DNA from: Patescibacteria group bacterium
GTDB taxonomy: Bacteria > Patescibacteriota > Patescibacteriia > UBA9934
Reading direction: 5' to 3'
Assembly: GCA_038064675.1 (NCBI GenBank)
Contig: JBBTSM010000003.1
Location: forward strand, 102,663-166,662
Length of the DNA: 64,000 nt
This document shows, piece by piece, positions 1,659 through 50,131 of the stretch. Both the position numbers and the translations under genes were made by a program. Position 1 is the first letter of the stretch; each line of letters begins with the position of its first letter. The notes beneath the pieces are model-generated. The model saw nothing but the letters and a program-made list of their open reading frames with translations, was not told the origin of the DNA and searched no databases.

Positions 1659-4478
1659 CTAGAAATCATCATCGCCATCGTCTTCAAACGATCCACGACA
1701 GAACACCTCTGGCTCAACAGCAGCAGTATCATTCAATCCCCATTTTTGCTGTCGCCCATCTCGTAGCGCGGCCCTCTTGAGCTTCAGAAGCTCAAGCTCT
1801 CGATCTAATTTGAGCTGAAGTTCGGACAATCTTCGCTGAAGCCCCCAACGATCTGCCCGACGTCCAACAATTCGCCCCATTGAGGGACGGTAGACTTCAT
1901 GTTTTCGCAGCCGAATGTCGCTAGGATAAAACCCCTCACGATCCGGACGAGAATCATCATCACGACTCCTTGCGTTGTAGTCGAATCGACGCCAATCAAA
2001 ACCGAGCGCTTCTAATTCCGTTATCGTTGCAGAAACTTTTCGCATGGCATCAATGGCCGCTTGCGTGTCCTGTCGGTCATGGATGCGATTGCGCAATACC
2101 ATTTCGGCATGCGGAATGTCGTTTTCGTCTAAACAACTCTGCACGCTCCGCTGATCACTTTCTGAAAACGGTGGCTCTCCAAGAACAAACGCAACAAGAT
2201 TATCAGCCTCGAACTCAGCATTCATTGCATCAGCCTCCACTTGCAACGCTCGTACATTCTTCAGTGTTTCGCTCAATGCCCCGTCCCCCATTGCCTCGCG
2301 GGCTCGAAGCGCAACAACACGCTGAGCATACTTCTCTTTTGCGCGAGCCATACTCGCCTCAGCGTCCGCCGTGTTTTGTGCATACTGGATTCGGTACGTA
2401 TCGCCATCTGAATACCGAATGGTTGCGTGCGCAAAATGTTCTACACCGTCCCGATCCACAACATACCAGATGGTTCTCGGACGCGACTCCATGAGAATAT
2501 CGAGCAGAGCGGGCGTCGGAAACTGATCATTCGGTGTGATCGTTAAAGGAATATCCATTTTTCCAACAGGATCTTGCGTTGAAAAATCTCTCCATGCCTG
2601 GGCAAGGAACCGCTCTTTAGGCTGGATGATCTCCAACAATTCCCCAAAACGATTTGCGGAAAATTCTCGCGCAGTCTGCCGAATCCCAAAACTCACATCC
2701 TCGAAACGGAACATGATCAACACCGGATTATCGCGCGTTCCAAGTAGTGGAACATCCGCCGGAGTTGCCCGCTCAAGCCAATGCGCATTCGCAAATGCTC
2801 CGCCGCCACGTTCGACGTCTACAACGCCTTTTACGATCTTTTCTCCTTTGGGATCCCATTCATATTTCACCGTAAACGGATGCTTCCCGAGTAAAATTGT
2901 TTCAGGATATTGCTTCTCTGCCTCACGGAGCGCCGCACGATCGGACTCTGCAGAAAATACATCATCAAGGGTTAACACAAAATGCGAACGCTTGTCGTCT
3001 AATTGTTTTGCAGTAGATACACCAGACGAAACAATACGATCAAACATCCACTCGCTTTCTGCGTCTGCGCCGGTATATGTATGCAACGGACCTGGATTAA
3101 CTCCGGCAATTTTTGCTAACAACGGCAATCGATTTTCAACAAGCTTCTTGTATATCCAGTGAACATCATTCCAATAATGTGGTTCAAAAATATCTTCGCG
3201 ATAGCCCACGCTTGAACGCGGACGTTCTCGAATCTTATATACTATCGCATTCGCGATTGTTCGTGCTGCCGCTTGCTCAACCACTGCCGCCCGATTGCCC
3301 TGCACAGGTTCTTCGGCGGGCATCAATCCGATACCATTCTTATTAATCAGCCAACGCTGAACATCGACGACAGTTTTCCCGTCGAAAGATCGGACACGTG
3401 GTTTCCCTCGTTCTTCCAAAAGATATCCCGTCGGCAGTGCTTCGAGAAGCTCTGGCTCAATAATGCCATGATAACCGTACCCAACGCGCTCGCCTCGGCC
3501 GTCCACACGAACAGTAGCAAAAACATTCGACACAATACCGCCATCAAACCCAACCGAACTGCGATCCGGAATGGAGGCGTAAAAATGTTGAGCATCGTAC
3601 GTGCCGGCCACTACCCAAGATGTTTGAGAACGAAAATCACGCGCGTCTTGCGCGTTACCCAACGGAGGAGCCGCATTCACCATGCGATCTATTTCTGCAC
3701 GAATCGCCTCTAAACGTTCTCGAGCCTGAGACTCAGCGTACCGCGCTGGAAGTTGCTTCAGGGGAATACAGTTTCCCTCATCTGACCGAACAAAGATGTC
3801 GTCCGCCTCAAATCCTGCACGAATAACCTTATGCAGCTGTTCGGCGCTTAGTGCCTGAATCTTTTCAATAAACGTTCCAACGTTAAACGAGGCCCGCGTT
3901 TTCGCCTCCTGTTCGTCACGAATCATTTTTGCAACATGAACCAATCCATCTCCATCTAAACCATACTGCTCGGCCCACGCGCGAAATGCGGATCGATCCT
4001 TTGGCGATTCAGCGGCAAAAACGTTTGGAACATTTTGCCCCGGCTTTGTAGCCTTTTTTAACGCGGCGAACAACCGAAACCAATCTGATGGGCGAGCGTA
4101 TCCCGTTCCCGATTCTTGCATCTCACGATCAAGCAGAGCCTGACGGTCGTGCAATCTCTTCCAAGCACGACCGCGCGCCTGAGCATCAGTGCCGCCCCGC
4201 ATCTTCATTCGTTCAGCATCAATCATTCCGCGATCCGGAATCTTGTATACCTTTGCCATGTTTGTAAATCCTTCAACCGCCCGAACCAAATTCAACATCG
4301 CTTCTGCCTCAACAGTAATTCCCATCTCTTCCGCCTTCTGCAGCATCAATGCTCTTCGTTCCTGAGGTCCGAGCTGTTCGCCGGGAACCCGCGAGCGCTC
4401 AATCTGCCGAGGTACAGGAGCACTAGGCGCTTGCGGCCCACGATCCGCCAAGATTTCTTCCCATCTCATTTTTGCCAT
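1659..4478 (-). CDS. large hypothetical cytoplasmic protein (939 aa), no family recognised
   Basis: Single long ORF with mixed composition, no signal peptide and an acidic C-terminus (EDDGDDDF). Confidence 0.5.
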   Translation of the reverse strand: MAKMRWEEILADRGPQAPSAPVPRQIERSRVPGEQLGPQERRALMLQKAEEMGITVEAEAMLNLVRAVEGFTNMAKVYKIPDRGMIDAERMKMRGGTDAQARGRAWKRLHDRQALLDREMQESGTGYARPSDWFRLFAALKKATKPGQNVPNVFAAESPKDRSAFRAWAEQYGLDGDGLVHVAKMIRDEQEAKTRASFNVGTFIEKIQALSAEQLHKVIRAGFEADDIFVRSDEGNCIPLKQLPARYAESQARERLEAIRAEIDRMVNAAPPLGNAQDARDFRSQTSWVVAGTYDAQHFYASIPDRSSVGFDGGIVSNVFATVRVDGRGERVGYGYHGIIEPELLEALPTGYLLEERGKPRVRSFDGKTVVDVQRWLINKNGIGLMPAEEPVQGNRAAVVEQAAARTIANAIVYKIRERPRSSVGYREDIFEPHYWNDVHWIYKKLVENRLPLLAKIAGVNPGPLHTYTGADAESEWMFDRIVSSGVSTAKQLDDKRSHFVLTLDDVFSAESDRAALREAEKQYPETILLGKHPFTVKYEWDPKGEKIVKGVVDVERGGGAFANAHWLERATPADVPLLGTRDNPVLIMFRFEDVSFGIRQTAREFSANRFGELLEIIQPKERFLAQAWRDFSTQDPVGKMDIPLTITPNDQFPTPALLDILMESRPRTIWYVVDRDGVEHFAHATIRYSDGDTYRIQYAQNTADAEASMARAKEKYAQRVVALRAREAMGDGALSETLKNVRALQVEADAMNAEFEADNLVAFVLGEPPFSESDQRSVQSCLDENDIPHAEMVLRNRIHDRQDTQAAIDAMRKVSATITELEALGFDWRRFDYNARSRDDDSRPDREGFYPSDIRLRKHEVYRPSMGRIVGRRADRWGLQRRLSELQLKLDRELELLKLKRAALRDGRQQKWGLNDTAAVEPEVFCRGSFEDDGDDDF

Positions 4479-4516: not shown

Positions 4517-4792
4517 TCACAGTTCTTCCGACGAATTACATTCGTACAATATCAGAATTTCTGAAGAATCTTCTTGGCTCTTCGCACCACGGTGGCAGGA
4601 ACCATAATAGAAAATTTCGACGGTGCCCGTGCGGCGAACGGATTCCAGTGAAAGGTGATCTCCAGCAATTTCTGATGGGATGCCCGCCACCATCAGTTTT
4701 GCGCACGCAATATCTGCCCGCATCTCGTCGTCCATCGTCGCGGCAACGACCAAGATTTTTCCGCGGAGATTCATACAGAACGATTCTAACAT
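4517..4792 (-). CDS. possible small hypothetical protein
   Basis: Internal Met of ORF 4517..4822. The segment KILVVAATMDDEMRADIACAKLMVAGIP looks protein-like, whereas the overlapping plus-strand ORFs look like low-complexity junk. Confidence 0.2.
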   Translation of the reverse strand: MLESFCMNLRGKILVVAATMDDEMRADIACAKLMVAGIPSEIAGDHLSLESVRRTGTVEIFYYGSCHRGAKSQEDSSEILILYECNSSEEL

Positions 4793-4835
4793 GGAGCACG
4801 CTCTTAAAACAGGAATATACAAATTTTGCCAGCGG

Positions 4836-4864
4836 TTTACATCGGAAACAAGATTCTGTAGAAT
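4836..4864 (+). promoter_or_regulatory. sigma70-like promoter (TTTACA-17-TAGAAT) about 80 nt upstream of tRNA-Trp
   Basis: Hexamers and spacer read directly from the sequence. Confidence 0.4.
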
Positions 4865-4943
4865 GAACGTGCTTTATATGGTTTCGACTGAATAGAGTAA
4901 CCGGATAGAACCTTCTCCTCAAAACAGAAGGTTCTATGTATGG

Positions 4944-5017
4944 AGGGATATCGTATAATGGTAGTACAACGGTCTCCAAAACCGTTAGCGTGGGTCCGAT
5001 TCCCCCTATCCCTGCCA
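4944..5017 (+). tRNA. tRNA-Trp (anticodon CCA)
   Basis: Manual cloverleaf: acceptor AGGGATA/TATCCCT, anticodon stem ACGGT/ACCGT, loop CTCCAAA, encoded CCA. The T-loop reads TCCGATT, with C at the usual psi55 position. Confidence 0.65.
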
Positions 5018-5034
5018 AGAGCCGCTTTGGTGCT

Positions 5035-5083
5035 GTGACCGGATTCCCATAGGACCCAGGACGGGTTCCTGTGACCGGAGTCC
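5035..5083 (+). repeat. two tandem copies of a 13-bp direct repeat: GTGACCGGATTCC at 5035-5047 and GTGACCGGAGTCC at 5071-5083
   Basis: Read directly. A third copy at 5934-5946 closes the downstream gene. Confidence 0.6.
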
Positions 5084-5102
5084 TAGCCAAAGCGACTGCT
5101 GA

Positions 5103-5132
5103 AAACCCGCCACCAATTTGGTGGCGGGTTTT
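5103..5132 (+). terminator. rho-independent terminator, bidirectional (AAAACCCGCCACCAA/TTGGTGGCGGGTTTT)
   Basis: Perfect inverted repeat flanked by an A-run and a T-run. Confidence 0.55.
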
Positions 5133-5139
5133 CAATAGT

Positions 5140-5937
5140 ATGGATTACTTCGAATGGATTCTGAATTTCAACCGGCAAGAACTGGAGAGGGTACTGACCG
5201 CCGCCGTCGGGAATTATCCATTCCCGTTCTTCCATTTGGACGCTAGGCCATATGCGCTTAAGTCAATGACAGCGATGGTTCCGTTTAATCGGATACCACT
5301 TCAAAAGAACAAAGGTGATTTTGATCTCTTAATGCGGAGAGAGCGCGGGATATTTGATATAGGATATGCCGGATACGAACTAAAAGCCTTCTATCATAGC
5401 AAGAACGATGTAATAACGCCGAAACACAAAAAGCAGAAAAACATTCGTAAATACAAATATCAAATTGAAAAACTCTCACAAGGACCATGCCGATGGATTG
5501 GTTTCATTGAAATTCACTTTTTCGAGAGCGGTAACCTTAAGTCAATTGATAAAATTGAAACTATTTCAACGGAACTCGTCGAATCGTGCGTAAAATTTGG
5601 AGCAACATATGCTCAACTCTTCGTTCAGCTTCCTCCGCAGAGTGATGGCTTACTGAATTACGATGGTGTAATTTTTTATCCGGCAAAGTACTACAATTTT
5701 GGCAAAGATAGAATACGGGGAATCCGATCGGTTTTAAGTCTGTTAGTGACGAAACTTATTGCTCGCAAAATGAAAAAGCTCGGTGAGCTACCCGGTCAGT
5801 ACAATTATTACTGCATATCTTGTAAAAAGATCACTCCCTTAAATCCAGGAATAGGAATTGGCGATTATCACATCGCATGTTGCTGCCACTGCCTTAATCC
5901 TCTAATTGCTGACAGAAAGACTGCCAAATCGCAGTGA
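5140..5937 (+). CDS. PD-(D/E)xK-type nuclease-like protein with a C-terminal Cys cluster; AT-rich; flanked by direct repeats
   Basis: The ATG at 5140 is the first Met after the terminator. The track ORF actually begins at the GTG inside repeat copy 2. Motif GDFDLL...GYELK matches (P)D...ExK; C-terminus is CISCKK...ACCCHC. GC is ~42% against a ~52% backbone. Confidence 0.45.
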   Translation: MDYFEWILNFNRQELERVLTAAVGNYPFPFFHLDARPYALKSMTAMVPFNRIPLQKNKGDFDLLMRRERGIFDIGYAGYELKAFYHSKNDVITPKHKKQKNIRKYKYQIEKLSQGPCRWIGFIEIHFFESGNLKSIDKIETISTELVESCVKFGATYAQLFVQLPPQSDGLLNYDGVIFYPAKYYNFGKDRIRGIRSVLSLLVTKLIARKMKKLGELPGQYNYYCISCKKITPLNPGIGIGDYHIACCCHCLNPLIADRKTAKSQ

Positions 5938-5946
5938 CCGGAGTCC
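5934..5946 (+). repeat. third copy of direct repeat GTGACCGGAGTCC; overlaps the TGA stop of CDS 5140..5937
   Basis: Exact 13/13 match to the copy at 5071-5083. Confidence 0.6.
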
Positions 5947-6018
5947 CTCATTAAGTATCCTCGGAATCTTCCGAAACCCCCTGAATAACCGAGTTCAGGA
6001 GCGGAGTGCCCTACCACG

Positions 6019-6049
6019 AAAAAATACAGCTGATGTCAGCTGTATTTTT
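6019..6049 (+). terminator. rho-independent terminator AATACAGCTGA-TG-TCAGCTGTATTTTT
   Basis: 11-bp stem plus T-run. Confidence 0.55.
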
Positions 6050-6098
6050 CGTTGAGGCCACAAGGGAATAGAACTTTTGTGTTAAAATTCAACACAAT

Positions 6099-6557
6099 AT
6101 GATTGGAGAACGTGTCGAACAAATTGCGTCTCAAGAGATACAAGTTAGGATTGGCAACAAGGAAAGCAAGTTCCGTGTAGTTGATAGAAGTGATCAAGCG
6201 GAGATCGCAGTTCAAGTAGATGACGACACGAATCAGGATCAAATTGCAGATACGGTGAAGGCGGCACTTGAACAGCGATATTGGTTTGTAAATCCTCAAT
6301 GGGAACAAGAGACGTTGAAAGAACGATTTAAGATCGAACTTGGCCAATCTGCGGTTGAAATTTTTGCTTTTGGTGAAGGCCTGCAGGAGAGGGTACGCAC
6401 AGGAATCATTCGAACTCTCGAACGTTTGTATAGCAAGTTGGGCGATAAATCATTATGGCGTTTAGAGTCCATTCAGATACTTCCTCAACAGACAATAAAT
6501 CCGAAAAGCGGCGAAGCCGTTCCGAGGGATGGAATTTCCTGCTCAACGACGTCTTGA
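6099..6557 (+). CDS. hypothetical protein; probable N-terminal part of a frameshift-split metallopeptidase gene
   Basis: ORF track. Runs into a stop 29 nt after the next ORF has opened in the +1 frame. Confidence 0.4.
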   Translation: MIGERVEQIASQEIQVRIGNKESKFRVVDRSDQAEIAVQVDDDTNQDQIADTVKAALEQRYWFVNPQWEQETLKERFKIELGQSAVEIFAFGEGLQERVRTGIIRTLERLYSKLGDKSLWRLESIQILPQQTINPKSGEAVPRDGISCSTTS

Positions 6558-7101
6558 ACTTTATCCGGCGGGCACGGCAAATTCGGCTTATCGGAAAGGT
6601 GAGCTTCCGTGTACTGAACTTGAAGGAACGCTGGCACACGAAATAACTCACGTAGTGCTTGAAACTGCATTAGCCAGAGCGTGGGATTCTGAAGATCTCG
6701 GCTGGGAAATACACGACGAAGTTTTGATCGAACTGCCCGGGGGAGATCGCACGATGCACTTCAACAAGCGTCCACAGGAGTGCCCGACGAGTTACGGTGG
6801 TCTGCAACCCGATGATGATCGCGCCGATAGTGTTGTCGCATTCCTTTTTGCACCGGACAGATTAAACGAAAACCGTAAACGAATTCTTGATCGTGTTTTT
6901 ACGGGAGACGAGGAAATTCTCGCTAACGTGACACGGCTAGATACAAGATTGCCGGAAGTCCCCAGTAATATCGCGGTACACGTCACTCAAAAACGTAAAA
7001 GTCTTTTTGGAATAAGCTCTATCAAACCAGGAAAAGAAAAGCGAGTCGTTACGCTATCCGATTTCCGCAAGGAGCGCAATATTCCTGAGCCAAGGTTCTA
7101 A
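6529..7101 (+). CDS. HExxH zinc-metallopeptidase-like protein (C-terminal part)
   Basis: Motif TLAHEITHVV. Its frame is open from 6499. Deleting one A in the A4 tract at ~6504-6507 fuses it with 6099..6557 into a ~334-aa protein. Confidence 0.4.
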   Translation: MEFPAQRRLELYPAGTANSAYRKGELPCTELEGTLAHEITHVVLETALARAWDSEDLGWEIHDEVLIELPGGDRTMHFNKRPQECPTSYGGLQPDDDRADSVVAFLFAPDRLNENRKRILDRVFTGDEEILANVTRLDTRLPEVPSNIAVHVTQKRKSLFGISSIKPGKEKRVVTLSDFRKERNIPEPRF

Positions 7102-7125
7102 CGTCGTGTATTAGCCCCTGCTACG

Positions 7126-7156
7126 AAAAACACAGCTGACATCAGCTGTGTTTTTT
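7126..7156 (+). terminator. rho-independent terminator AACACAGCTGA-CA-TCAGCTGTGTTTTTT
   Basis: Nearly the same hairpin as at 6019-6049. Confidence 0.55.
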
Positions 7157-7210
7157 GTTCGTGCACAGGATCTGCTAGAACGTATCGTTCAAATATCATA
7201 AAATGTTTAC

Positions 7211-7570
7211 GTGGTAAACATGTATTCAGTAATCTCTACAAGCAATATGCTGGGAACATATGAAAAAGCGCTCGAAGTCGCCGCAGCCGATAAGGGGCTC
7301 CAGGCAGCGATGGCAATTAAGCGATGGATTAAAGAGGCCCCAATCCCTAGTACTCAAATTGGAGATGGCGGGTATATTGCAAGTCAAGATATTCAAGCGG
7401 CCCTTGAAGGAGACGGACTAGAAGTGCGAACTGAAGTGAATCTTGTTCGAGAGGGATTCCCCCGTATCCAAGCGGGAGTTGGTTCAGTGGGATTTGATGA
7501 GAACCTCACGATTGAATCGGTGGGCGAAAATCGCTACAAGATTACGATGAGAAAATCCGTTGCGCGCTAG
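7211..7570 (+). CDS. hypothetical protein (119 aa)
   Basis: ORF track. Last gene of the AT-rich islet and has its own terminator. Confidence 0.35.
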   Translation: MVNMYSVISTSNMLGTYEKALEVAAADKGLQAAMAIKRWIKEAPIPSTQIGDGGYIASQDIQAALEGDGLEVRTEVNLVREGFPRIQAGVGSVGFDENLTIESVGENRYKITMRKSVAR

Positions 7571-7588
7571 CCCCTGCCAGAAACATTT

Positions 7589-12392: not shown

Positions 12393-13568
12393 TTACCACC
12401 GACCAGTTCCGTTTGGATTGTAACCATTCGCAATCTCGAGGCCATCGTTGTAGCCGTCGTTATCGGAATCGGAATCAAAACGGTTGGTCCAGTGAACGGT
12501 CATTTCGGAATAATCCGTAAGACCGTCACCGTCGGAATCGAGCTTACCAACGCCGTTTGGATCGTAGCCATTGATGACTTCGGTGTAATCTTTATATCCA
12601 TCACCGTCCGTATCGGAACTGAACGGATTAGAATGCCACACATGTTCCTCATCCGCATTCGTTACGCCATCGCCGTCAGTGTCCATAGCGGAAACCGCGT
12701 TACCAAGGCTTTCAATAGCGGCCTCATCGTCGTCCGACAGATGATAGTTCTTGATATCGGTTGCATTGGTTGGCAACACAATATTCGTAGGCCGATTAAA
12801 GCTCTTGAAGAGCACCGAAACGCCGATGGTGGTATACGATGCATCGCTCTGGCGCACACTCACATTGAGTGTGAACATCGTAGGAAGCATGTCTGCAACA
12901 TCTACCCAGAAGGAACCACCGATCGTGACATGTTCGGCAAGATAGGTACGAACAGCGTCTTTTCCAGACGATGCGACCATCTTTTTCTCAACGAGATAAT
13001 CAACAAGATTATCGGTATCGATCGTGTACGCGTATCGCACCGTAGGCTTCTTGTTGATGAAGTCCACGGTTTCGTAATGGTACGTCACGATACCACGATC
13101 AAACATATCTTGAAGAGCTGACTGCATTTCTGCAATCCCCTCTGCGGTATCGGCGGCAGTTGGATACTCAGTCGAACCAGACTGCTTTGCAAAATACCAA
13201 GTGTCCCCGTCTTGCGAAAAGTACGCGGTGTCTTTGGTAAGGATCAACGATCCGTTCCGCGTATTGAATGCTCCGTTCTGGTCGGTCATCGATGCAGCGA
13301 AATCGAAGCGGCTATTTTGTGTTTCACTGGAAACGCCATCAAGATCCAAATGAATCTTCACCGGTTGCTTCATGCTTGATGTATACGTCTCCATATCCAC
13401 ATCGACGCCAAAATCAACAGACGTCGCGCTTGCGACGTTCTCAAGAAGTGTCGCGGACGAATCACCGAAGCTTGAGGTGAGGGTCGTCGAGGCCTGCGCA
13501 AACGACGCCGGCAACAACACCACACCCAAAACAGCAGTAGAAACGAGCTTTTTGATAAGATTTTTCAT
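12393..13568 (-). CDS. secreted protein with C-terminal thrombospondin-type-3-like Ca-binding repeats
   Basis: Internal Met MKNLIKKLVSTAVLGVVLLPASFAQA (signal peptide). Three DxDxDGxxDYxE motifs. Ends NGYNPNGTGRW. Confidence 0.5.
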   Translation of the reverse strand: MKNLIKKLVSTAVLGVVLLPASFAQASTTLTSSFGDSSATLLENVASATSVDFGVDVDMETYTSSMKQPVKIHLDLDGVSSETQNSRFDFAASMTDQNGAFNTRNGSLILTKDTAYFSQDGDTWYFAKQSGSTEYPTAADTAEGIAEMQSALQDMFDRGIVTYHYETVDFINKKPTVRYAYTIDTDNLVDYLVEKKMVASSGKDAVRTYLAEHVTIGGSFWVDVADMLPTMFTLNVSVRQSDASYTTIGVSVLFKSFNRPTNIVLPTNATDIKNYHLSDDDEAAIESLGNAVSAMDTDGDGVTNADEEHVWHSNPFSSDTDGDGYKDYTEVINGYDPNGVGKLDSDGDGLTDYSEMTVHWTNRFDSDSDNDGYNDGLEIANGYNPNGTGRW

Positions 13569-13739
13569 GGAAATTAGCCAATGAATTAACCAATCAGTAT
13601 AGCAAAAAAATGGCCAAAAGTCAAGGAATTTGGCTAAGATAAAAGGTAAAATAGAATCTAATCTGATCCTGAAATCGATGAAAAAGCAGATCAATGCAAC
13701 GCATCGTGAGCTGCATTAAGGAGGCACTGCTTCGAAATG

Positions 13740-28245: not shown

Positions 28246-31200
28246 CTACGGCCTTGGCGCTACGGTGTACGGATCGAAGCCATTCAAAATTTCAATATAG
28301 TCCGTGTACCCATCGCCATCTGAATCGAGCGTACTTGATGAATCAAGAGGCGCAGCAATCGTTGGCGTTACGGGCTCTGAAGTCGCACAAGCATTCGTGA
28401 GTCCGGGAGTTACAGCGTATCCCGGAACGTGCATGACGTCGCTTGGGTACGAAACAAGATTGTAAATGCTCTCCGCACGCCACGCGAGGTCCGTCAGCAC
28501 GGCGCCAAAGTGGTAGTTGCGGTAGAACACGTCCTGAATGTCGTCCACCTTCTTGTTCCAGTCGCTGCCGTAAATTGTTGTCGCATCGGTTTCAGACAGC
28601 ACCCAGCGCAAGCTTCCGTCGCTATCCACTGCGTACACCCGAGGATCGGTAATGAACTTCACCAGTCGGCTTCCCGGACGATACGTGACATTTGGACCGA
28701 TTGGCATTGAAGCCATTTCGGACGGCGTCAGAACCGTTACATGATCTTCGCTGCAGAACCACGAATCGTACACATGAGGGTTCGGGAATGCATGACGATA
28801 TCCGTCTGCACCAACGTAGTACACCGTAGTATCGTATTGGCTCTCTGCATTGCTATCATCGGAAAGCTTCACCAGGGAATGGATTTCAACCGACGCTGGT
28901 AGTGATGCAACGCGTGCGGCGATTTCCGCGATTGCTGCACCAGATGCCGTACTGTCATCAACAATAGTTCCTGGATCGACGTTTGATGTCGTCGATGCGG
29001 ATGCAGATACAATGAACGTATCAGAAACTGATCGCGCAAGCACTTGGATAAAGTCCGTTCCTTCAATACGCACCTCTGCGGTTGTCGTCGCTTGATCAAG
29101 GGTAATCGTCGTTGATCCCGTGTTCGTCACAAAGTATCGCTGCAGCGCCCATGTTGCTCCTCCATCCAACGAAAGGTACACGTTGACTGCTGGAATGCTT
29201 CCTGTCCATACCCACGTCACGCTCATCGCCCCAAAGCCGTATGTTGCATTAGCGGTTGGCTTTCGTAGGCTGATGGTTGGCGACGTTGATGTACCGCCGC
29301 CTCCCCCTCCGCCTCCACCGCCCCCTCCACCACTTTCGCCGGTGGATACTGGATCGTTGTCCGTTACTGTCACAGGTACTCCTTCAATCGTCAGCGCGGC
29401 GTACGTGGAATCCGCAGAAGAAACAACGTGCAGAATGGAGTGAACCTCTGCACCCTCGATTGTTGAATCATCAACTGCGGAAACCGTGACCGCTTGTGGA
29501 GTGCTCCAGTTTTCGGCGGTGAACGTGAGCTGACTGACGCTTGTTGTGACGTCACCGTCGCCAATCATGAACACCGAGACATTCGCCGTTGGCTGGCTCT
29601 TCAGCACAATGGTGTATGCGTCCTGGGCTCCGCCTTCTGTTACCGCTGTGGCGTCTTCGCTTTGGACCACGGTGAATCCCGGCGTGTCGTTGTCGGTATT
29701 TGAAAGTGAAAGATCTGCAGGATTGATTGCGGCATACACCGCATCAACCGAGACTGCTGTTGCAAGAATAATGTTGTACGCCACCGTGCCGTCGTTTACC
29801 ACATCATCTATACCCGTTACCGTAATCGTCTGCGGCACATTCCAGTTTACCGACGTGAATGTTGCCGTGGATGCACTCACCGTTCCTTCGGTGGCGTCCG
29901 AACTTGAAATGTCGATACGAACATCTGCGATTGGCTCTGACGTGAGAACGAGCGTGAAAGTTGCTGTTGCGCCAGCCTCCGAGGTGTTCCCAGAAATGGC
30001 TCCAACCGTAATTCCCGCAACGTCGTTATCAGCAACCTGAACGCTCACCGATACAACGACAAGAGCATCGAACAATACATCAGATGAATACGTCGTGTGA
30101 TCGATACTATGCGTATGCGTTCCTTGAGCGATTACATCGTCCGTAACAGAAATGGTGACTGTCTGTGGGGTGTTCCAGTTTCCCGAAGTGAATGTCAAAA
30201 TTGATACATCCGTTGCGACCGGTGCGGCTGCAGTAAGATTCACCGTAACATCTGACGATGGCTGTGCAGAGAGAACCAATGTGTATGTATCTGTTGCACC
30301 AACTTCGGTAACCGCCGATGCCCCGCCCGACTGCGTTACGAGAACCGACGCGGCATCATTATCCGTATTCGTCACGGAAACGTCTGTTGGGTTCAATTCT
30401 GAATATGCTGGATCAGTTGACGTCATTGCACCAAGAACCACCGCATACACCACATCGCCATCCACAACAACGTCGTTCATACCCGTCATTGTGATGGTCT
30501 GTGGAATACTCCAGTTTCCCGAAGTAAACGTGAGCGATAGCGTGGAAAGCATTCCTTCGGCCTCATTCGATGAAGAAAGTGGAATTGTGACGTCTGCCGA
30601 TGGCTGCGAATTGAGGACGACGGTAAACGTTGCTGTTCCGCCGGCTTCCGTGGTGTTCCCTGACGACGGCGACACCGAAACTCCAACCGCATCATTGTCC
30701 GTGTTTATTACGCTCACATCAGCAGGATCAAGCGCGTTGTAGTTTGTGTCCGCCGATGTCGCAGCACCAAGAACAATTGAATACGCCACAGGTCCATCAA
30801 CCGCACCGTCGTCCACACCGGTCACGGTAATGGTTTGCGGTGCATTCCAGTTTTCCGACGTAAATATCACTGTCGCCGGCAAAACCGTTCCTTCATTCGT
30901 GGCGCTCGATGAAATGTCGAATGTCACATCTGCAGTCGGCTGTGTGTTGAGGACGATCGTAAAAGTTGCAGTAGCGCCAGCTTCTGTGGTGTCTCCGGAA
31001 ATTGCGCCAATCGTCGCAGCAGCAACATCGTCGTCGGTGTTCGTTACCGATACATCCGATGGATTGATGCCGTTATACAGCAGATCATCCGAAGTCGCTG
31101 CACTCGTCACAATTGCGTACACGATATTTCCATCGATCGTTGAGTCGTTCGCGCCAGTTGCAGTGACGGTTTGCGGTGTACTCCAATTCCCTGTCGTGAA

Positions 31201-34200
31201 TGTCAACGATGCTGGAGATACCGTTCCTTCGGTAAGGTCCGAGCTCGTCAGCCCGATTGTAACGCTTGCAGTTGGTTGCGCATTGAGCACTATGGTGAAC
31301 GTTGCAGTGCCGCCGGCTTCTGTGGTGTCGCCAGAAATCGCACCGAACGTGAATCCAGAAACATCATCGTCCGTGTTCGTTGCTGAAATGTCTCCCGGAT
31401 TCAATCCGTTGTATGGAGAATCTGCAGACGACGCTGCTGCAGTGACAATCGTGAACGCAATATCCCCATCATCAAGATCGTCATTCACACCGGTAACGGT
31501 TACTGTTTGTGGTGTGTTCCAATTTCCCGAGGTGAATGTTTTTGATGTCTGTACTGTTCCTTCGGTGGTATCCGAACTTGAAAATCCAACGGTAACGTCT
31601 GTTGTTGGCTGCGTATCGAGAACAATCGAGAAGGTTGCGGTGCCGCCAGCCTCGGTGGTGTTCCCCGAAATTGTTCCCACAGTAATTCCCGCGGTGTCGT
31701 CGTCTGTTGTTGAAACAGAAACGTCCGATGGATTCAATCCGTTGTAATTTGTATCGCTCGACGTTGCTGCTGCGGTAATGATCGAGTATGCCACCGTTCC
31801 GTCGTCAATAACATCGTCTACACCGGATATGGTAATCGTCTTCGGCGTATTCCAGTTCCCCGTTGTGAATGAAGTGCTTGCAACAACCGTGCCTTCGGTG
31901 GCATCCGAGCTCGAAAGATCGATCGTCACACTTGCCGTCGGTTGTGCGTTCAACACAATAGTGAATGTTGCGGTGCCACCGGCTTCGGTGGTATTCCCAG
32001 AAATCGCGCCAACCGAGAAACCAGAAATATCATCGTCATCGTTCACAATAGTCACGTCTGCAGGATTCAATCCGCTGTATGCAGAATCGGCAGACGTGAT
32101 AGCTCCAAGAAGTGCGCTGTACGAAACATCGCCATCGTCGAGATAATCATTCACGCCAGTCACCGTCACCGTCTGTGGCGTGGACCAATTTCCCGACGTA
32201 AAAGTGAGCGATGCAACGCCGACCGAACCTTCCGTTGCGTCTGAAGACGAGAGCGGGATCGTCACGTCGGCAGTTGGCTGTGCGGTAAGTACAACCGTGA
32301 ACGTTGCAGTCGCTACCTCGTCTTCGCTTGTGTGACCAGAAATCGCCGATGCCGTTGCGCTAGCCGTGTCGTTGTCCGTATTTGTGACCGACTCATCCGA
32401 AGCATTAATGCCGTTGTAGTTGGTGTCGGCTGATGTTGCCGCAGCGGTCACAATTGCATACACAACATCGCCGTCGTCGATAAGATCATCAACACCAGTT
32501 ACCGTTACGGTTTGTGGCGTGCTCCAGTTCCCCGTCGTGAATGTGAGCGATGATGGAGAGACGGTTCCCTCAGTCGTGTCGTTCGACGTGAGACCAACGG
32601 AAACGCTTGCCGTTGGCTGCGCGTTGAGGACGATGGTGAATGTTGCGGTTCCGCCAGCTTCCGTGGTGTTTCCGGAGATTGCTCCGAGCGTAAATCCTGA
32701 TGTGTCGTTGTCGGTATTTGTCACGGCAATGTTTGCTGGATTGATGCCATCGTAGTTGAGATCGGCGGATGTTGCCGCTGCGGTAACAATCGAGTATGCA
32801 ATGTCACCGTCGTCAAGATCATCGTTCACGCCAGTGACCGTGATCGTCTGTGGCACGCTCCAGTTTCCTGATGTGAATGTTACTGATGCCGGAGAGACGG
32901 TTCCCTCAGTGGAATCTGAGCTCGAGATCGCTACAGAAACATCGGCAGTTGGTTGCGCCGTGAGAACGATCGTGGCCGTTGCAGTAGCGCCAGCTTCCGT
33001 AGTATTGCCCGAAATCACGGATACCGTAACGCCAGCGACATCGTTATCGTCATTCACCACCGTCACATCCGATGGATTCATTGCGTTGTACAACAGGTCG
33101 TCCGATACCGCCGCGGCCGTCACGATCGAGAACGAAATATTTCCGTCGATGACCACGTCATCAACGCCAGTAATCGTCACCGTTTGTGGCGTAGACCAGT
33201 TCCCCGTCGTGAATGTGAGCGATGATGGAGAGACGGTTCCTTCCGTGGTGTCGTTCGATGATAAGTCAATGGAAACGCTTGCAGTTGGTTGAGCGTTCAA
33301 CACGATAGTGAATGTCGCGGTGCCGCCAGCTTCTGTGGTGTCCCCCGAGATGACTGAAACGGTGAAGCCGGAGGTGTCGTTGTCTGTATTGGTAACACTC
33401 ACATCGGCAGCGTTCAGACTGTCATAGTTACCATCCGCAGAAGTAGCAGCCGCGGTAATAATACTATAGGCAATATCACCATCATCAAGATCATCATTTA
33501 CCCCTGTCACGGTAATCGTCTGTGGCGTGCTCCAATTGGCGTTGGTGAATGTAAGGGAGGCAGCAGAAACCGTTCCTTCACTGGTGTCATTTGAAGAAAT
33601 TCCTATCACCACATCACTAGCGGGCTGCGTGTCTAAAACAATTGTGAAGGTGGCCGTGGCTCCAGCTTCGGTGGTATTGCCAGAGATAGCGGAGACGGTT
33701 ATGCCGGCCGGAGTGGAAGAAAACCAATTAGTCGTATTTGTACCCTCAACGGAATTCGCCGGATTAATCGGCGCGCTGACACCCGAAGAATTATCCGTAA
33801 CAATGCTGTCAGTAATATCGAGGTAATCTCCGCTAAACGACGAGGTTCCTTCGAAGTCGAACGTCGACGCCGTGGTAGGAGACGAAGAAACGATGTTTAA
33901 ACGATCTGAAGCATCCAATCCATCAAGCGTTAGCGTTCCATTGATCGTCTGCGTCGAACCTGCTTCGATCGTCAAAACAACATCGGTTGCATTGTCACTG
34001 CTATCCTGCAAGGTCAAAGAATTCCAGCTGGGACTTCCGGTAATGCTGTGGTTGGCGTTGGCATCAAAGGTAACCGTTCCACTATTGTGGGTAAACGTTG
34101 CCGCGCCTTTGATGAAGTTACCAGAAATCGTAGTCAAGGTCGGAGCGGTGAACGTTCCCGTCGTCAACGTGAGTGTTCCGTTGACATCGGCAGTCCCCGA

Positions 34201-37200
34201 ACTTCCGGTGTATGTTCCTCCAGAAAGAGTCAAACCAGCATCAAATGTTTGCGTGGCCGATCCGCCCGTGTAGGTTCCGCCGGAGACAGTCGTCAAACCC
34301 GTGCTTGTGGTCGTCTGCCCGTTAGCATCGTACGTTCCCGACGAAATAGCCAAAGTACCAGCGATAACTTTTGCCCCAGCCGATTGGACAATATCTGCCG
34401 CATCCGTCGTAGCAATGGTGAGGTTGTAGTAATCCGTTGCTCCAAAATCTTTCAACGTGTAGGTATCGGCAGCAGCGTCCCCATCACCAAGGTAGATCCA
34501 GGCTCCCGAATCCGTATCCTGCGTCAAAGAAAGAGATTCTGATCCGATCAAACGAACCGTGTCGCTGTTGCTAAACGTTCCCGTCACGGTAAGACCAAAA
34601 CCCGCCAAGGAAAGAATACCGTTACTAACGGTAAGATTTTCCGCGATCGATGTGGTGGCGGGCAAGGTAAACACCGTCGTCGCCGCCGTCCCGTCGATCA
34701 CGACATTTTTATAGCCGGAATAGTTTTTCAGGGTATAAGGACCAGATGTACCGTAGTAATAAATCGTACTCCCCGCATCCCATTGCGGATACGAAGCGCC
34801 GGTTGTGGTAATTGTCTCTCCCCCTTGGAGCTTCAAGGTTCCTCCGGCGTTGATGATCAGCTTTGAACTTGACGCATTCATGTTGATTGTATTCCCGTTC
34901 AAATCAAGCGTTCCGTTTACTACCGTAACCGTTGTTGTATTTCCGTCATCTAGGGAGGAGTCAAGAATCAAGGAACCGCCGGATTTATCAATGGTGAAGT
35001 TTCCAAGTGCCTTTGCACTTGATTCTGTAAAATGTTGTGTTCCTGATCCGTAAAAACCTACTGTTGCTGCTGAACTAGCAATACTCGCACCCACAGTCAT
35101 ATTTCCGTACAACTGAAATGTCCCTTCTGCAGGTTTCGTCGTTTGCGCAATCACTCCGTTGGTTCCCCCGAGTGATAAATTACCAAGAACAATTAAGGAG
35201 TCACTATTTGAAATAGTTGTTGTGTTGGTGCTCGTCGGATTGACAGAAAGAGTATAGAAAGTCTCCGTGAAATTAACGTTGATCGTTGGGTTTGACCCGT
35301 TCATGCTGACGGATCCATTGTTGTGGTTGAAGATTCCCCCCGCGGTATGCGTCCAGCTCCCGTTAACCGTCATGGTTGCTGTTGTTGCGTTGAATGTTCC
35401 TCCAGCAATAACAACAGAACCGAGAGTAACGCTCGACGCCCCAAAGTTGATTGTTCCGCCATTATGGGTATAGGTACTATTTGGAGTAAAGCCAAGGTCG
35501 GCGGTATTCCAAGTTCCGTTAGTGAACGTAAACGTTCCGACGGTGATCGCTGTTGATTGCGTAACGGAACCAGCACTTTTATCTATGGTGAATGTTCCCG
35601 AGAATCCCGAAGGAATGCTCCACACTTGATCCGCTGTGCCCGTCAAAGAAATTGTCCTCGAACCAGGGAAGGAACTCCCACTTCCAGTAATATCTCCCCT
35701 TAACTCAAGCGTTGCTGCCAACGCACCGCCACCAGCGTTACTAAAATTAAATGTGTGCGCGATAATTAACGTCCCTCCGGTAACGGTTCTTGTATTTGAA
35801 TTTGTGACGGAGAATGTCGCGTTGTAAAAAATATCTTGATCAACAACCGTAATGGTCGAGCTTCCACCCGTTGATGAAAACGTACCGCTTCCGTGGTTAT
35901 AGGTTCCGCCGGAATGAGTCCACGTTGTCGAGATAGCTGTCGTTCCACTGGTTGCTGTGTAGGTACCACTAGAAAGCGTGTACGTGGAGTGCGTCACCGT
36001 GTCGCTTCCTCCGGTAAAGATTCCGCCGGATTGGTTGTAGGCTCCGGAAAAAGTCATGGCGTATCCGGTTGCGTCGATCGTTCCCGCCTGAAGGTTTACT
36101 GCGCTAAATGTGAGAGTTCCTGTACCCGTTCCGCTGAAGGTAAAATTGGCGTTGTTGAGCGTCACCGTGCTGGCGAGCGCGGCTTGTCCGCCGTTGAGCG
36201 GGAGGTTCTGGGTGTTGGTGCCGTCGATAAGAAGTATGCCGCCTCCACCATCCCATCCAGAATTGAGCGAAATGGTACTCGTTGCCTCGACCGTACCCGT
36301 TCCAAAACCACCGTTGGTAAGGGTGAGCGTACCGGTAGCAACAAGTGTATCTCCAGATGAAACGGTCAATAACGTCGAACCATTTTTCGCAAGCTCAAGG
36401 TTATTAAATGTTTCTGTTGTCGCGACGTTTGTTGTAGAAGCTGAACCGGAAAACCTTACAGAACCACTGTTGTGGGTAAATGTTCCCGTGCCAGCCGTAT
36501 GCGTAAACCCGGCGCTAAAAGTGGTTGTCCCACTCGTAGCGGTATACGTCGCTCCTGGGCCACTCAGCGTAAAAGCGCCGGTGTGGGTTACTGCATTGAT
36601 TCCACCAACAAAGACACCATTGGATGATTGATCAAATGTGGAACTAAAGGTTGTCGTGCCCGAACCGGACGTTGGGGCATTGTAGGTTCCTCCGCTTAAA
36701 GCAACCGCCCCCGAAAACGTCACGGTTGCGGTGTTGGCATTAAAGGTACCCGCAGACATGGTCAATGCTCCCACTGCAACCGTTCCTGTACCAGATGTGT
36801 TAACCGTAGCGCTCGTGTTTGTGACGCTCAGGTTTACAGCCGTATTTCCTGAAGTAAGTGTTGCTGTAACGGTGGCTGATCCTCCAAGAAGAAGCGTTCC
36901 TGTTCCTCCATCAAACGTAGAGGCCCAACTTGTTGTTCCACGCGCGTCCCAGGTTCCGGTCGTCAGGTTACCGTCGGTAAGCGTGCTCGTACCAGTCACA
37001 ATCATCGTATCTCCAGAGGCAATCGTAAGACTCGTTGCTGTGGTTTTATTGAGCGTGACGTTATTAAACGTTTCACTAGTGGCGAAATCAAATGTTCTTG
37101 TACTCCCCCCTGTAATATTCACAGCACCACTTGCTTGAGAGAACGTTCCCGTTCCGGCTGTGTGGGTGAAGTTACTACTAAAAATTGTTGTGCCGATACT

Positions 37201-37662: not shown

Positions 37663-37763
37663 ATTTTTCACATGGTTGGATGGCCAGATAATACCGGTTT
37701 CGTGGCTGCTCGAATACCACGTTATACACATAAAATTACAGGATCGAGATACACTACTCGCAT

Positions 37764-38375
37764 ATGGCATCATGGAGCCCCCAAGAACGCTCAATCCTTC
37801 GAGCGCTCTCCACCCCGGCGAAAATTCAAGACTTCTTGAACGGCCTTCGATTCCGGATTATCGGCAAGAATGAGACATGCCATTCCCCTCGTCTGGTGAT
37901 GCGGTATCGGGAAGCACAATGCGTTGAAGGTGCGATGTTTGCGGCGGCCGCGCTCCGATTCCACGGCTATCGACCGCTCATCGTCGATCTCGTTTCTACC
38001 GCACAGGACCAAGACCACGTCATCGCGGTCTTCCAGATTAATGGGCACTGGGGAGCGATATCAAAAACAAATCACGGCGTGCTCCGATATCGCGAGCCTA
38101 TTTACCGATCGATTCGCGAGCTCGTGATGAGTTACTTTCACGAATACTTCCTCCAATCGAATCGGAAAAAAACTCTCCGAAGTTTTTCGAAGCCCGTTGA
38201 TCTCACCAGATTTGATCACCAAGGATGGGAAACAAGTGAAGAACCGATTTGGTATATTCCAGAATACCTCTTATCGATTCCCCACTCACCAATTCTGAAC
38301 CGATCCCAAATTGCACGATTACGTCTAGCCGACCCCATCGAGGCGCAGATGACGGAAATCGTGGAGTGGGAATGA
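37764..38375 (+). CDS. transglutaminase-like cysteine peptidase superfamily protein, transcribed divergently from the giant adhesin
   Basis: EAQCVEGAMFAAAALRFHGYRPLIV...DHVIAVF fits the Cys-His-Asp transglutaminase-like core. Confidence 0.4.
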   Translation: MASWSPQERSILRALSTPAKIQDFLNGLRFRIIGKNETCHSPRLVMRYREAQCVEGAMFAAAALRFHGYRPLIVDLVSTAQDQDHVIAVFQINGHWGAISKTNHGVLRYREPIYRSIRELVMSYFHEYFLQSNRKKTLRSFSKPVDLTRFDHQGWETSEEPIWYIPEYLLSIPHSPILNRSQIARLRLADPIEAQMTEIVEWE

Positions 38376-39035: not shown

Positions 39036-39049
39036 AGAATATAGAGAAC

Positions 39050-39160
39050 TTCCTCATTTGGCCTATTTTCGACTCACGTCTTCGCAAACTTGCTCAACGC
39101 ACCATGAAGTACGCCTCGCAAGCTTTGCTCGCCGTTCATCGAAACTAGTCTCAAATGTGA
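39050..39160 (+). repeat. copy 1 of a ~110-bp MITE-like intergenic element with terminal inverted repeats CCTCATTTGG / CAAATGAG; sits upstream of rplU
   Basis: About 88% identical to copy 2. Same orientation relative to the downstream gene in all four copies. Confidence 0.55.
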
Positions 39161-39185
39161 AAGTTCTGTTAGATTTGTGCTGCTG

Positions 39186-43167: not shown

Positions 43168-43280
43168 CTTCCTCATTTGGTCTATTTTCGACTCACTTCG
43201 TCGCAAAATCGCTCAACGTACCATAAAGTACGCCTCGCGATCTTTGCTCCTCGTTCATCGAAACTAGCCTCAAATGAGAA
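43168..43280 (+). repeat. copy 2 of the MITE-like element, upstream of gene 41808..43157
   Basis: Aligned to copy 1. Confidence 0.55.
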
Positions 43281-43305
43281 ACCCCTAATTTGAATAAATC
43301 ATATC

Positions 43306-50027: not shown

Positions 50028-50056
50028 TTGATTCTTTCGTCATTTCCGTCTACAAT
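50028..50056 (+). promoter_or_regulatory. promoter TTGATT-17-TACAAT followed by the conserved leader GTTTGGTCCGCTCCTTCG
   Basis: Paralogous to the element at 50743-50772. Confidence 0.4.
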
Positions 50057-50131
50057 GTTTGGTCCGCTCCTTCGAGCCGACAACCTGCAGCGAGGATTCG
50101 TTGCTCCATTCTCACACCGCAGAGGTGCCCT

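What the first reader, a model, noticed from the sequence alone, without database searches (positions are those of the whole stretch)
5035..5946. A single-gene cassette exactly bracketed by a 13-bp direct repeat, GTGACCGGAGTCC
There are three copies: 5035-5047 (GTGACCGGATTCC), 5071-5083 and 5934-5946 (both GTGACCGGAGTCC). The nuclease-like ORF sits precisely between the second and third copies. The longest ORF actually starts at the GTG inside repeat 2, and the TGA stop lies inside repeat 3. The first two copies are in tandem 36 bp apart, with a hairpin terminator between repeat 2 and the ATG at 5140. This looks like a target-site duplication or an att/recombination site around a small selfish cassette (homing-endonuclease-like or cassette-like), or repeated capture at a repeat array.
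Basis: seen in the sequence. Interest (0 to 1): 0.55.

Follow-up and report, generated by a model that had tools for sequence, protein, structure and literature searches.

The report
Orphan gene beside tRNA-Trp, repeat-flanked
A gene with no known relatives and foreign-looking base composition sits just after a tRNA-Trp gene in a groundwater Patescibacteria genome; the 13-base repeat on both sides of it is real, but nothing shows it marks a mobile cassette, so this is most likely an ordinary small gene-acquisition scar.

Summary
GTGACCGGAKTCC occurs exactly at 5035, 5071 and 5934, and nowhere else in the 64 kb. The longest ORF runs from the GTG in copy 2 to the TGA in copy 3, and a strong terminator (5095-5139) precedes the ATG at 5140.

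The mobile-cassette reading is not supported:
- Copies 1 and 2 lie inside a stable 73-nt hairpin (5023-5095) directly 3' of tRNA-Trp. The hairpin's 3' arm (5086-5094) lies inside the proposed cassette, so 5083/5084 is an unlikely insertion junction.
- There is no transposase, integrase, terminal inverted repeat, second cassette or empty site.
- An exact 13-mer pair within 1 kb is expected about 1.3-1.6 times per window. The triple arises in 0.6% of simulated windows.

What is supported:
- The 265-aa ORF is a true orphan, with no homologue in 5.8 billion proteins or in any profile library.
- It has the lowest GC of 36 genes in the window.
- It occupies a spot where every related genome differs; one carries a DUF559 nuclease-like gene there.

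Best reading: a horizontally acquired, probably poorly expressed gene pasted into a rearrangement-prone tRNA-proximal spacer. "Nuclease-like" is untested. Interest is low.

The parts
4836..4864 (+). Promoter-like site (TTTACA-17-TAGAAT) for the tRNA-Trp unit. It is the only + strand promoter-like site upstream of the ORF.
   Evidence: The site is conserved in relative L010.
4905..4937 (+). Leader hairpin (ATAGAACCTTCT/AGAAGGTTCTAT) upstream of the tRNA, conserved in L010.
   Evidence: (I15).
4944..5017 (+). tRNA-Trp (CCA) gene. Homology with relative L010 ends exactly at its 3' end.
5023..5095 (+). 73-nt hairpin in the tRNA 3' trailer. The outer 9-bp stem pairs 5023-5031 with 5086-5094, and GGAUUCC (copy 1) pairs with GGAGUCC (copy 2). 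It is absent from L010 and matches no Rfam family.
   Evidence: (dG -37.9 kcal/mol, z -3.65).
5035..5047 (+). 13-mer copy 1, GTGACCGGATTCC.
5071..5083 (+). 13-mer copy 2, GTGACCGGAGTCC. Its GTG is the start of the longest ORF, as annotated in GenBank.
5095..5139 (+). Strong intrinsic-terminator hairpin (GAAAACCCGCCACCAA/TTGGTGGCGGGTTTTC) ending 1 nt before the ATG.
   Evidence: (I1).
5140..5937 (+). Orphan ORF of 265 aa from the ATG. GC is 0.411. By eye it carries D-x19-ELK and a C-terminal CxxC...CCCHC cysteine cluster. No family was assigned.
5934..5946 (+). 13-mer copy 3, GTGACCGGAGTCC. It supplies the TGA stop and lies at the right-hand composition boundary.
5947..6004 (+). 58-nt tail with no similarity to any relative.
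6005..6075 (+). Resident terminator module: GCCCTACCA, the 30-nt perfect palindrome at 6020-6049, then CGTTGAGGCCACAAGGGAATAGAACT. Positions 6019-6075 are 98% identical to L141 7550-7606. A second copy in the window lies at about 7113-7180.
6099..7101 (+). Downstream neighbour: a frameshifted copy (152 aa + 190 aa ORFs) of a gene that is 325-330 aa in relatives.

Best explanation
The 265-aa ORF (5140-5937) is a lineage-specific gene, most likely acquired horizontally. It is lodged in the spacer between tRNA-Trp and a resident terminator module, at a position that has been rearranged in every related genome.

The three 13-mers are not the ends of a mobile cassette. Copies 1 and 2 belong to a stable hairpin in the tRNA 3' trailer. 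Copy 3 sits at the foreign/resident boundary and supplies the stop codon. I infer that copy 3 is one of two things: a short stretch of homology, or a pre-existing local repeat, next to which the foreign fragment was joined by illegitimate recombination; or a coincidence. The first case is the 'chance insertion between repeated sequences' class of PMC2853133.

The gene has no promoter-like site of its own and sits directly behind a strong terminator, so it can only be read by terminator read-through and is probably weakly expressed. The 13-bp repeats could still permit precise loss of the 863-bp unit by slippage or recombination.

Shown: orphan status, atypical composition, hairpin, terminator, variable locus, resident module on the right. 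Inferred: horizontal origin, mode of joining, poor expression.
For: - Orphan status: the ORF matches only itself among 5.8e9 proteins. Only repeat-inflated spurious hits appear among 1.84e9 representatives with full HMMER. Pfam, PHROGs, PADLOC, NCBIfam, PDB, viral contigs, phages and plasmids give nothing.
- Composition: GC is 0.411 against a gene mean of 0.515, the lowest of 36 genes (z -3.3). GC1 > GC3 > GC2 is typical of real coding sequence. The dip is confined to about 5140-5940.
- Left side: in L010, the promoter, leader hairpin and tRNA-Trp are conserved, but homology stops at the tRNA 3' end. A plain terminator and the homologue of the window's 91-aa gene follow.
- Flanking genes are conserved but the middle is rearranged.
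- Right side: the gene upstream of the 325-aa-family gene differs in all relatives. It is a DUF559/MTES_1575 gene in L141, a 104-aa gene in L144 and a 156-aa gene on the opposite strand in L142.
- Positions 6019-6075 are a resident module, 98% identical to L141 and duplicated at about 7113-7180.
- The hairpin spans the supposed junction.
- No promoter-like site lies between 4865 and 5140 on the + strand.
- Pairs of 13-mers occur at chance level.
- PMC2853133 lists chance insertion between repeats as one of three known origins of direct repeats flanking acquired genes.
Against: - The triple repeat is uncommon by chance: 0.6% of simulated windows. Its coincidence with the ORF's stop codon and the composition boundary makes pure chance less comfortable.
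- No genome closer than about 63-70% protein identity is available, so neither the pre-insertion state nor the origin of the hairpin can be reconstructed.
- All 15 contigs of this population are 99.98-100% identical, so the time of acquisition cannot be dated.
- The hairpin and terminator could themselves have arrived with the ORF.
- Low GC is also typical of fast-evolving native genes.
Confidence: 0.55

Rival explanations
1. True mobile single-gene cassette. The 863-bp unit (5084-5946: terminator + ORF + one repeat) was inserted at a GTGACCGGAGTCC site. The insertion happened either by transposition with a 13-bp target duplication, or by site-specific recombination between a cassette-borne and a chromosomal copy of the 13-mer.
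For: - Exact 13-bp direct repeats bracket the longest ORF.
- The cargo is foreign-looking and the locus is variable.
- The triple repeat is seen in only 0.6% of simulated windows.
- Relative L141 has a nuclease-like DUF559 gene at the same position.
Against: - The 3' arm of the hairpin's 9-bp outer stem (5086-5094) would have to be brought in by the cassette and fit the chromosomal 5' arm (5023-5031) by chance.
- No reciprocal hairpin half lies at copy 3.
- There is no transposase, integrase or IntI in the unit or within 10 kb.
- There are no terminal inverted repeats.
- The window has no other copy of the motif or of the gene, and the gene matches only itself among 5.8e9 proteins.
- No empty site was found.
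- The DUF559 gene in L141 has no flanking repeat.
Confidence: 0.12
2. The 13-mers are copies of a short REP-like element or binding sites for a DNA- or RNA-binding protein: a regulator, a RAYT-type enzyme encoded elsewhere, or the ORF's own product. Two sit after the tRNA and one at the 3' end of the ORF. They are unrelated to how the gene arrived.
For: - The core GGAKTCC is a near-palindrome containing GANTC.
- GANCGGAKTCC occurs 7 times against 0.44 expected, with 5 of them in 4636-5946.
- In an unrelated metagenome contig (L149), 37-nt tandem units containing GTGACCGGAGTCC and many GGAGTCC hairpins flank a Y1_Tnp/RAYT gene.
- This lineage does carry conserved short elements that overlap stop codons at gene 3' ends.
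Against: - No copy of the 13-mer lies elsewhere in the 64 kb, and the window has no RAYT.
- The L149 match is the kind of hit a scan of a huge collection gives for any tandem repeat. The hairpins there differ from the window's.
- The extra copy at 4636 is conserved coding sequence also present in L010.
- The motif pattern was drawn after seeing the data.
Confidence: 0.15
3. Pure coincidence on all counts. The hairpin contains a local 13-nt duplication, and a third identical 13-mer happens to lie at the end of the next ORF.
For: - Exact 13-mer pairs within 1 kb are expected 1.3-1.55 times per window.
- A triple arises in about 1 of 170 simulated windows, so a scan of many windows will find some.
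- No homology extends beyond the 13 nt.
Against: The joint coincidence of the triple, the overlap with the stop codon and the composition boundary is well below 1% per window (the combination is my estimate).
Confidence: 0.15

Closest known systems
[quoted passage not shown]
   Same: A small gene unit with foreign composition and no mobility gene. It is flanked by direct repeats, lies next to a tRNA gene, and sits beside a local rearrangement: the tRNA unit is inverted relative to L010.
   Different: The repeat is 13 bp, whereas that paper's 'long target duplication' class requires more than 30 bp. No methyltransferase or recognisable restriction enzyme is present. No empty-site genome is available for comparison.
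tRNA-gene-associated genomic islets (integrase-mediated integration at tRNA 3' ends; own knowledge)
   Same: Variable DNA begins exactly at the 3' end of tRNA-Trp.
   Different: There is no integrase. The repeats start 18 nt after the tRNA and share nothing with it. No copy of the tRNA 3' end exists elsewhere in the window at up to 3 mismatches over 26 nt.
REP/BIME elements with RAYT transposases (own knowledge; example locus L149)
   Same: Short GC-rich motifs with hairpin potential lie at the 3' ends of genes. L149 has GTGACCGGAGTCC inside REP-like units flanking a Y1_Tnp gene.
   Different: There are only three copies, all at one locus in 64 kb. The window has no RAYT, and the hairpin sequence differs.
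Integron gene cassettes (own knowledge)
   Same: A promoter-less single ORF sits next to a roughly 70-nt imperfect inverted repeat, and short direct repeats lie at both ends.
   Different: The hairpin is 5' of the ORF, not 3'. By eye it has no RYYYAAC/GTTRRRY core sites. No IntI is nearby, and there is no cassette array.
Free-standing homing-endonuclease-like genes in Patescibacteria variable regions (DUF559 gene in L141, GIY-YIG gene in L008)
   Same: A small gene sits at the same intergenic position as the DUF559/MTES_1575 gene of L141. By eye the ORF has a D...ELK motif and a cysteine cluster.
   Different: There is no detectable similarity to DUF559 or to any nuclease family. Homing genes do not produce 13-bp flanking duplications.

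Membership tests
Transposon / insertion sequence with target-site duplication | Encodes a recognisable transposase | tested here: not met
   No Pfam, NCBIfam or PHROG hit. No homologue at all.
Transposon / insertion sequence with target-site duplication | Terminal inverted repeats just inside the duplicated target | tested here: not met
   No inverted repeat pairs the two ends, 5084-5110 against 5910-5933.
Transposon / insertion sequence with target-site duplication | Short direct repeats immediately flanking the element | tested here: met
   An exact 13-bp repeat lies at 5071-5083 and 5934-5946. By my own knowledge this is longer than the usual 2-10 bp.
Transposon / insertion sequence with target-site duplication | Further copies, or an empty site, in the same or related genomes | tested here: not met
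   The window has no other copy. All contexts are identical. The empty-site junction is absent from JGI metagenomes, but that collection did not return the population's own locus either, so that one negative is weak.
Integrase-mediated island at a tRNA gene | Tyrosine or serine recombinase gene in the element | tested here: not met
   None among the called genes within +/-10 kb.
Integrase-mediated island at a tRNA gene | Flanking repeat that includes part of the tRNA 3' end | tested here: not met
   The 13-mer begins 18 nt after the tRNA. The tRNA 3' half is not repeated in the window.
Integron cassette | attC site 3' of the ORF with conserved core sites, and an IntI/attI platform | tested here: not met
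   The hairpin is 5' of the ORF. No comparable hairpin lies at copy 3. No integrase is nearby. Absence of core sites was judged by eye.
Homing endonuclease gene | Membership of a known nuclease family (LAGLIDADG, GIY-YIG, HNH, PD-(D/E)xK and others) | tested here: inconclusive
   No profile or structure hit. The AlphaFold model is unusable, with pLDDT 31.5. D-x19-ELK and the cysteine cluster were seen only by eye.
Homing endonuclease gene | Intact recognition site at the same position in genomes that lack the gene | not testable with these tools
   No close relative shares the tRNA-Trp / 325-aa-gene junction.
REP elements with RAYT | Many dispersed extragenic copies in the genome | tested here: not met
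   Three copies at one locus in 64 kb. The rest of the genome was not available.
REP elements with RAYT | A Y1 (IS200-like) RAYT gene in the genome | tested here: inconclusive
   None in the window by tblastn with the L149 RAYT. The rest of the genome was not searched.
Known structured RNA (Rfam) | Match of the 5018-5140 hairpin region to a covariance model | tested here: not met
   Apart from the tRNA itself, only sub-threshold chance hits at E up to 10. Only the four tRNAs reach gathering score in the window.

The most novel reading that the evidence does not exclude
The ORF encodes a previously unseen kind of nuclease or recombinase that recognises GTGACCGGAKTCC. On this reading, the unit bounded by the direct repeats is a minimal self-mobilising cassette, with two sites at one end and one at the other. 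It would insert next to tRNA genes by recombination between direct copies of its own site.
Probability: 0.04. Interest if true: 0.75.

Novelty: new member of a known kind. Interest (0 to 1): 0.2.

Why it matters
If the repeats really were the ends of a one-gene mobile unit, it would be a new minimal mobile element in the little-understood Patescibacteria, and its protein a new site-specific DNA enzyme. The evidence points instead to a routine outcome of gene flux: a single orphan gene dropped into a rearrangement-prone spot beside a tRNA gene. Its value is mainly as an example of how orphan genes enter small, streamlined genomes, and of why short flanking repeats alone should not be read as mobility signatures.

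Tried and rejected
- **Known RNA for the hairpin.** I considered SRP RNA, tmRNA, ribozymes and riboswitches. Rfam gives nothing at gathering score or at E up to 10.
- **Structure of the ORF.** A single-sequence AlphaFold model has pLDDT 31.5 and is unusable, so no fold search was run.
- **Weak HMMER hits P0014 and P0015.** Both are repeat-inflated 40-residue matches to long repetitive proteins and are not homologues.
- **Logan contig ends as evidence of strain variation.** Contig ends fall at 4957, 6049-6052 and 6020. They are explained by k-mers in the tRNA shared between species and by the 30-nt perfect palindrome at 6020-6049, which is a self-complementary (k-1)-mer at k=31. The explanation rests plus inference.
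- **The ORF or its tail as a decayed paralogue of the 325-aa gene.** There is no similarity.
- **The region 5018-7580 as an island bounded by tRNA-Trp 3'-end copies (GCCCCTGCCA).** That motif belongs to a wider conserved element found at gene 3' ends in several genomes, away from tRNA-Trp. The block from the 325-aa gene to the TSP3 gene is syntenic in L144.
- **Genome-contig scan with GACCGGAKTCC-N15-40-GACCGGAKTCC.** More than 119 hits, mostly high-GC Streptomyces. The single hit inspected, the Uhrbacteria locus L026, lies in what looks like a repetitive coding region.
- **Metagenome scan with the full two-copy pattern.** Seven hits. Most look like protein or tandem repeats by their spacing, and only L147 and L149 were read. 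L149 is discussed as a lead; the window's own population did not appear.
- **Viral contigs, phages and plasmids.** Nothing.
- **Direct repeats around the DUF559 gene of L141.** None beyond chance.

Full report
**1. What is in the sequence**

GTGACCGGATTCC is at 5035-5047, and GTGACCGGAGTCC is at 5071-5083 and 5934-5946, all on the + strand. There is no other exact copy on either strand of the 64-kb window. The longest ORF (5071-5937, 288 aa) begins at the GTG of copy 2 and ends at the TGA inside copy 3. A hairpin with 22-nt arms and a T-tract (5095-5139) ends one base before the ATG at 5140.

It has a sigma-70-like promoter at 4836-4864. The window comes from a Patescibacteria (CPR) metagenome-assembled genome. 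The contigs that carry it come from groundwater samples labelled Hain_H41 and from a few other runs.

**2. Is it more than chance?**

- An exact direct repeat of at least 13 nt within 1 kb is expected 1.3-1.55 times per window of this composition. 73% of simulated windows have at least one. The pair 5071/5934 alone therefore means nothing.
- An exact pair plus a third copy with at most one mismatch within 1 kb arose in 10 of 1722 simulations, or 0.6%.
- A direct alignment of 5015-5145 against 5860-6065 finds only the 13 nt, with no extension. 0.2% of shuffles do as well.

The triple is unusual for one window but not for a scan of many windows. That copy 3 also overlaps the stop codon and the composition boundary lowers the chance reading further, but this is a post-hoc combination.

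**3. Copies 1 and 2 belong to a hairpin**

The stretch 5019-5098 folds into one hairpin (dG -37.9 kcal/mol, z -3.65, 1 of 200 shuffles as stable).
- An outer 9-bp stem pairs 5023-5031 with 5086-5094.
- GGAUUCC of copy 1 pairs with GGAGUCC of copy 2.
- An inner stem and loop follow.

Together with the terminator the region has z -8.2. Rfam has no family for it, even at E up to 10.

If DNA had been inserted at 5083/5084, the incoming DNA would have had to carry a 9-nt complement of the chromosomal 5' arm by chance. Nothing like the other half of the hairpin is present at copy 3. This argues against both a simple target-site duplication and a single crossover at the 13-mer. The argument is an inference from the fold.

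**4. The ORF**

From the ATG the ORF encodes 265 aa. It is a true orphan:
- It matches only itself among 5.8 billion clustered proteins.
- A full HMMER pass over 1.84 billion representatives gives only two repeat-inflated spurious hits.
- Pfam, PHROGs, PADLOC, NCBIfam and PDB sequences give nothing.
- Viral contigs, phage records and plasmids give nothing.
- A single-sequence AlphaFold model is unusable, with pLDDT 31.5.

Its GC is 0.411, against a mean of 0.515 for 36 genes in the window. That is the lowest of all (z -3.3), and its codon-position pattern is normal for coding sequence. The GC dip is confined to about 5140-5940, while the hairpin plus terminator has GC 0.566.

By eye the protein has D-x19-ELK and a C-terminal CxxC...CCCHC cluster. 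This is compatible with a PD-(D/E)xK nuclease carrying a zinc ribbon, but it is not a test. No promoter-like site lies between the tRNA promoter and the ATG, and by eye there is no Shine-Dalgarno sequence before 5140. The ATG sits directly behind a strong terminator. I infer that expression depends on read-through.

**5. Same population**

Nine contigs carry the ORF, and further contigs carry its two neighbours. They come from several samples and all are 99.98-100% identical to the window. No context lacks the ORF.

The short Logan contigs break inside the tRNA and at the 30-nt perfect palindrome at 6020-6049. Assembly-graph effects explain these breaks (plus inference). The precise empty-site junction is absent from JGI metagenomes. 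That collection did not return the occupied site either, so this negative is weak.

**6. Relatives**

The 939-aa neighbour (1659-4478, - strand) has homologues at 43-66% identity.

In the closest one (L010), the promoter, leader hairpin and tRNA-Trp are conserved. Homology stops exactly at the tRNA 3' end. There the tRNA is followed directly by a plain terminator and the homologue of the window's 91-aa gene. In the window that gene lies on the other side of the tRNA and on the opposite strand. The TSP3-repeat gene at 12393-13694 is 75% identical to a gene on the far side of the L010 tRNA. The flanks are therefore conserved while the middle has been rearranged.

On the right, the ORFs at 6099-6557 and 6529-7101 are one frameshifted copy of a gene that is 325-330 aa in relatives. 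The gene immediately upstream of it differs in every relative:
- a DUF559/MTES_1575 restriction-endonuclease-like gene in L141;
- a 104-aa gene in L144;
- an opposite-strand 156-aa gene in L142.

The DUF559 protein is not similar to the orphan, and its gene is not flanked by repeats. No relative has the 13-mer or the hairpin.

**7. The right-hand boundary**

Window 6019-6075 consists of the terminator ACAGCTGATGTCAGCTGT plus 27 nt. It is 98% identical to L141 7550-7606, which lies downstream of the 325-aa gene there. The window has its own second copy after the 190-aa ORF, at about 7113-7180.

This is resident DNA. The DNA unique to this genome is therefore 5018 to about 6004: the hairpin, the terminator, the orphan ORF and a 58-nt tail with no similarity to anything.

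**8. Other leads**

The shorter motif GANCGGAKTCC occurs 7 times against 0.44 expected, and five of these lie in 4636-5946. The pattern was drawn after seeing the data, and the 4636 copy is conserved coding sequence also present in L010.

A metagenome scan for two 13-mers 15-40 nt apart gave seven hits. Most look like protein or tandem repeats by their spacing. One of them, L149, has 37-nt tandem units (GTCCGTTGTGACCGGAGTCCCGACTTTAGTCGGGGTT) and many GGAGTCC hairpins on both sides of a Y1_Tnp/RAYT gene. That is a REP-like array. The window has no RAYT, and the hairpins differ, so I treat this as a lead that is probably a coincidence.

**9. Interpretation**

The gene is best read as acquired cargo in a rearrangement-prone, tRNA-proximal spacer. 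It is not a demonstrable mobile cassette.

Furuta et al. (PMC2853133) recognise three origins for direct repeats around acquired genes:
- **Site-specific recombination.** This lacks an integrase and a tRNA-derived repeat here.
- **Target duplication.** This is contradicted by the hairpin spanning the junction, and no empty site is available to test it.
- **Chance insertion between repeats.** This, or plain coincidence, fits best.

A binding-site or REP-like role for the motif remains possible.

**10. Confidence and scores**

| Reading | Confidence |
|---|---|
| Acquired orphan gene, repeats not a mobility signature | 0.55 |
| True cassette with target duplication or att sites | 0.12 |
| REP-like elements or binding sites | 0.15 |
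| Pure coincidence | 0.15 |

Novelty: a new member of a known kind, namely an orphan-gene islet beside a tRNA gene. Interest: 0.2.

Noticed in passing
window 7095-7123 and 7551-7579 (degenerate copy at 5990-6016); L008 6700-6728; L144 669-697 and 1562-1590; L141 6416-6444 and 7520-7549: A conserved element of about 29 nt, GTTCTAACGTCGTGYAYTAG|CCCCTGCCAC, lies at the 3' ends of unrelated genes in several related Patescibacteria. It often contains the stop codon and is followed by a terminator hairpin. In L008 and L144 it continues into a shared hairpin, CACGTCnnTCGCGACCGAC. Its last 9-10 nt equal the 3' end of the L010 tRNA-Trp, and MAFFT aligns its GGTTCTA with the T-loop. There is no Rfam family for the window's copies, and its meaning is unknown.
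   Followed up: partly
window 6019-6075 vs L141 7550-7606; window about 7113-7180; L141 6430-6510: A terminator-plus-27-nt module is 98% identical between genomes whose proteins are only about 70% identical. In the window it lies upstream of the 325-aa-family gene, and in L141 it lies downstream. It is either mobile or under strong constraint.
   Followed up: partly
window 6099-7101: The 152-aa and 190-aa ORFs are one gene (325-330 aa in relatives; HEITH motif) split by a frameshift near 6505-6520. The frameshift is identical in all independent assemblies, so it is a real pseudogene or a programmed shift.
   Followed up: partly
window 4800-5017 vs L010 3380-3577: The promoter-leader-tRNA-Trp unit is inverted relative to the neighbouring 91-aa and 939-aa genes when compared with L010. 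The 192-aa gene found between them in relatives is missing here.
   Followed up: partly
L141 5756-6412: A DUF559/MTES_1575 restriction-endonuclease-like gene occupies the same position as the orphan ORF, immediately upstream of the 325-aa-family gene and on the same strand. It has no flanking repeats.
   Followed up: yes
L141 7606-8583: There is a probable T-box leader (GGTGGCACCGCG, seen by eye) upstream of a class I Trp/Tyr-type tRNA synthetase gene (PF00579). By eye it is trpS.
   Followed up: no
L149 2000-2870: A RAYT (Y1_Tnp) gene is flanked on both sides by REP-like arrays rich in GGAGTCC, including three 37-nt tandem units, two of which contain GTGACCGGAGTCC. The organism is unknown and the contig GC is 0.46.
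   Followed up: partly
window 50054-51451: A tandem duplication with a 716-bp period lies about 0.8 kb downstream of the tRNA-Thr/Tyr/Thr cluster. It includes a 36-nt exact repeat, CCCCGCGACGAGAGCCCCACGCTCCGGCGCGGGGTT, at 50684 and 51400, within 63-nt copies that are 87% identical.
   Followed up: no
window 39049-39162 and 43168-43281: A 114-nt direct repeat, 89% identical, with copies 4119 bp apart.
   Followed up: no
window 28246-37794 (- strand): A 3182-aa ORF is built from many repeats of about 336 nt (112 aa). It accounts for most of the short exact repeats in the window.
   Followed up: no
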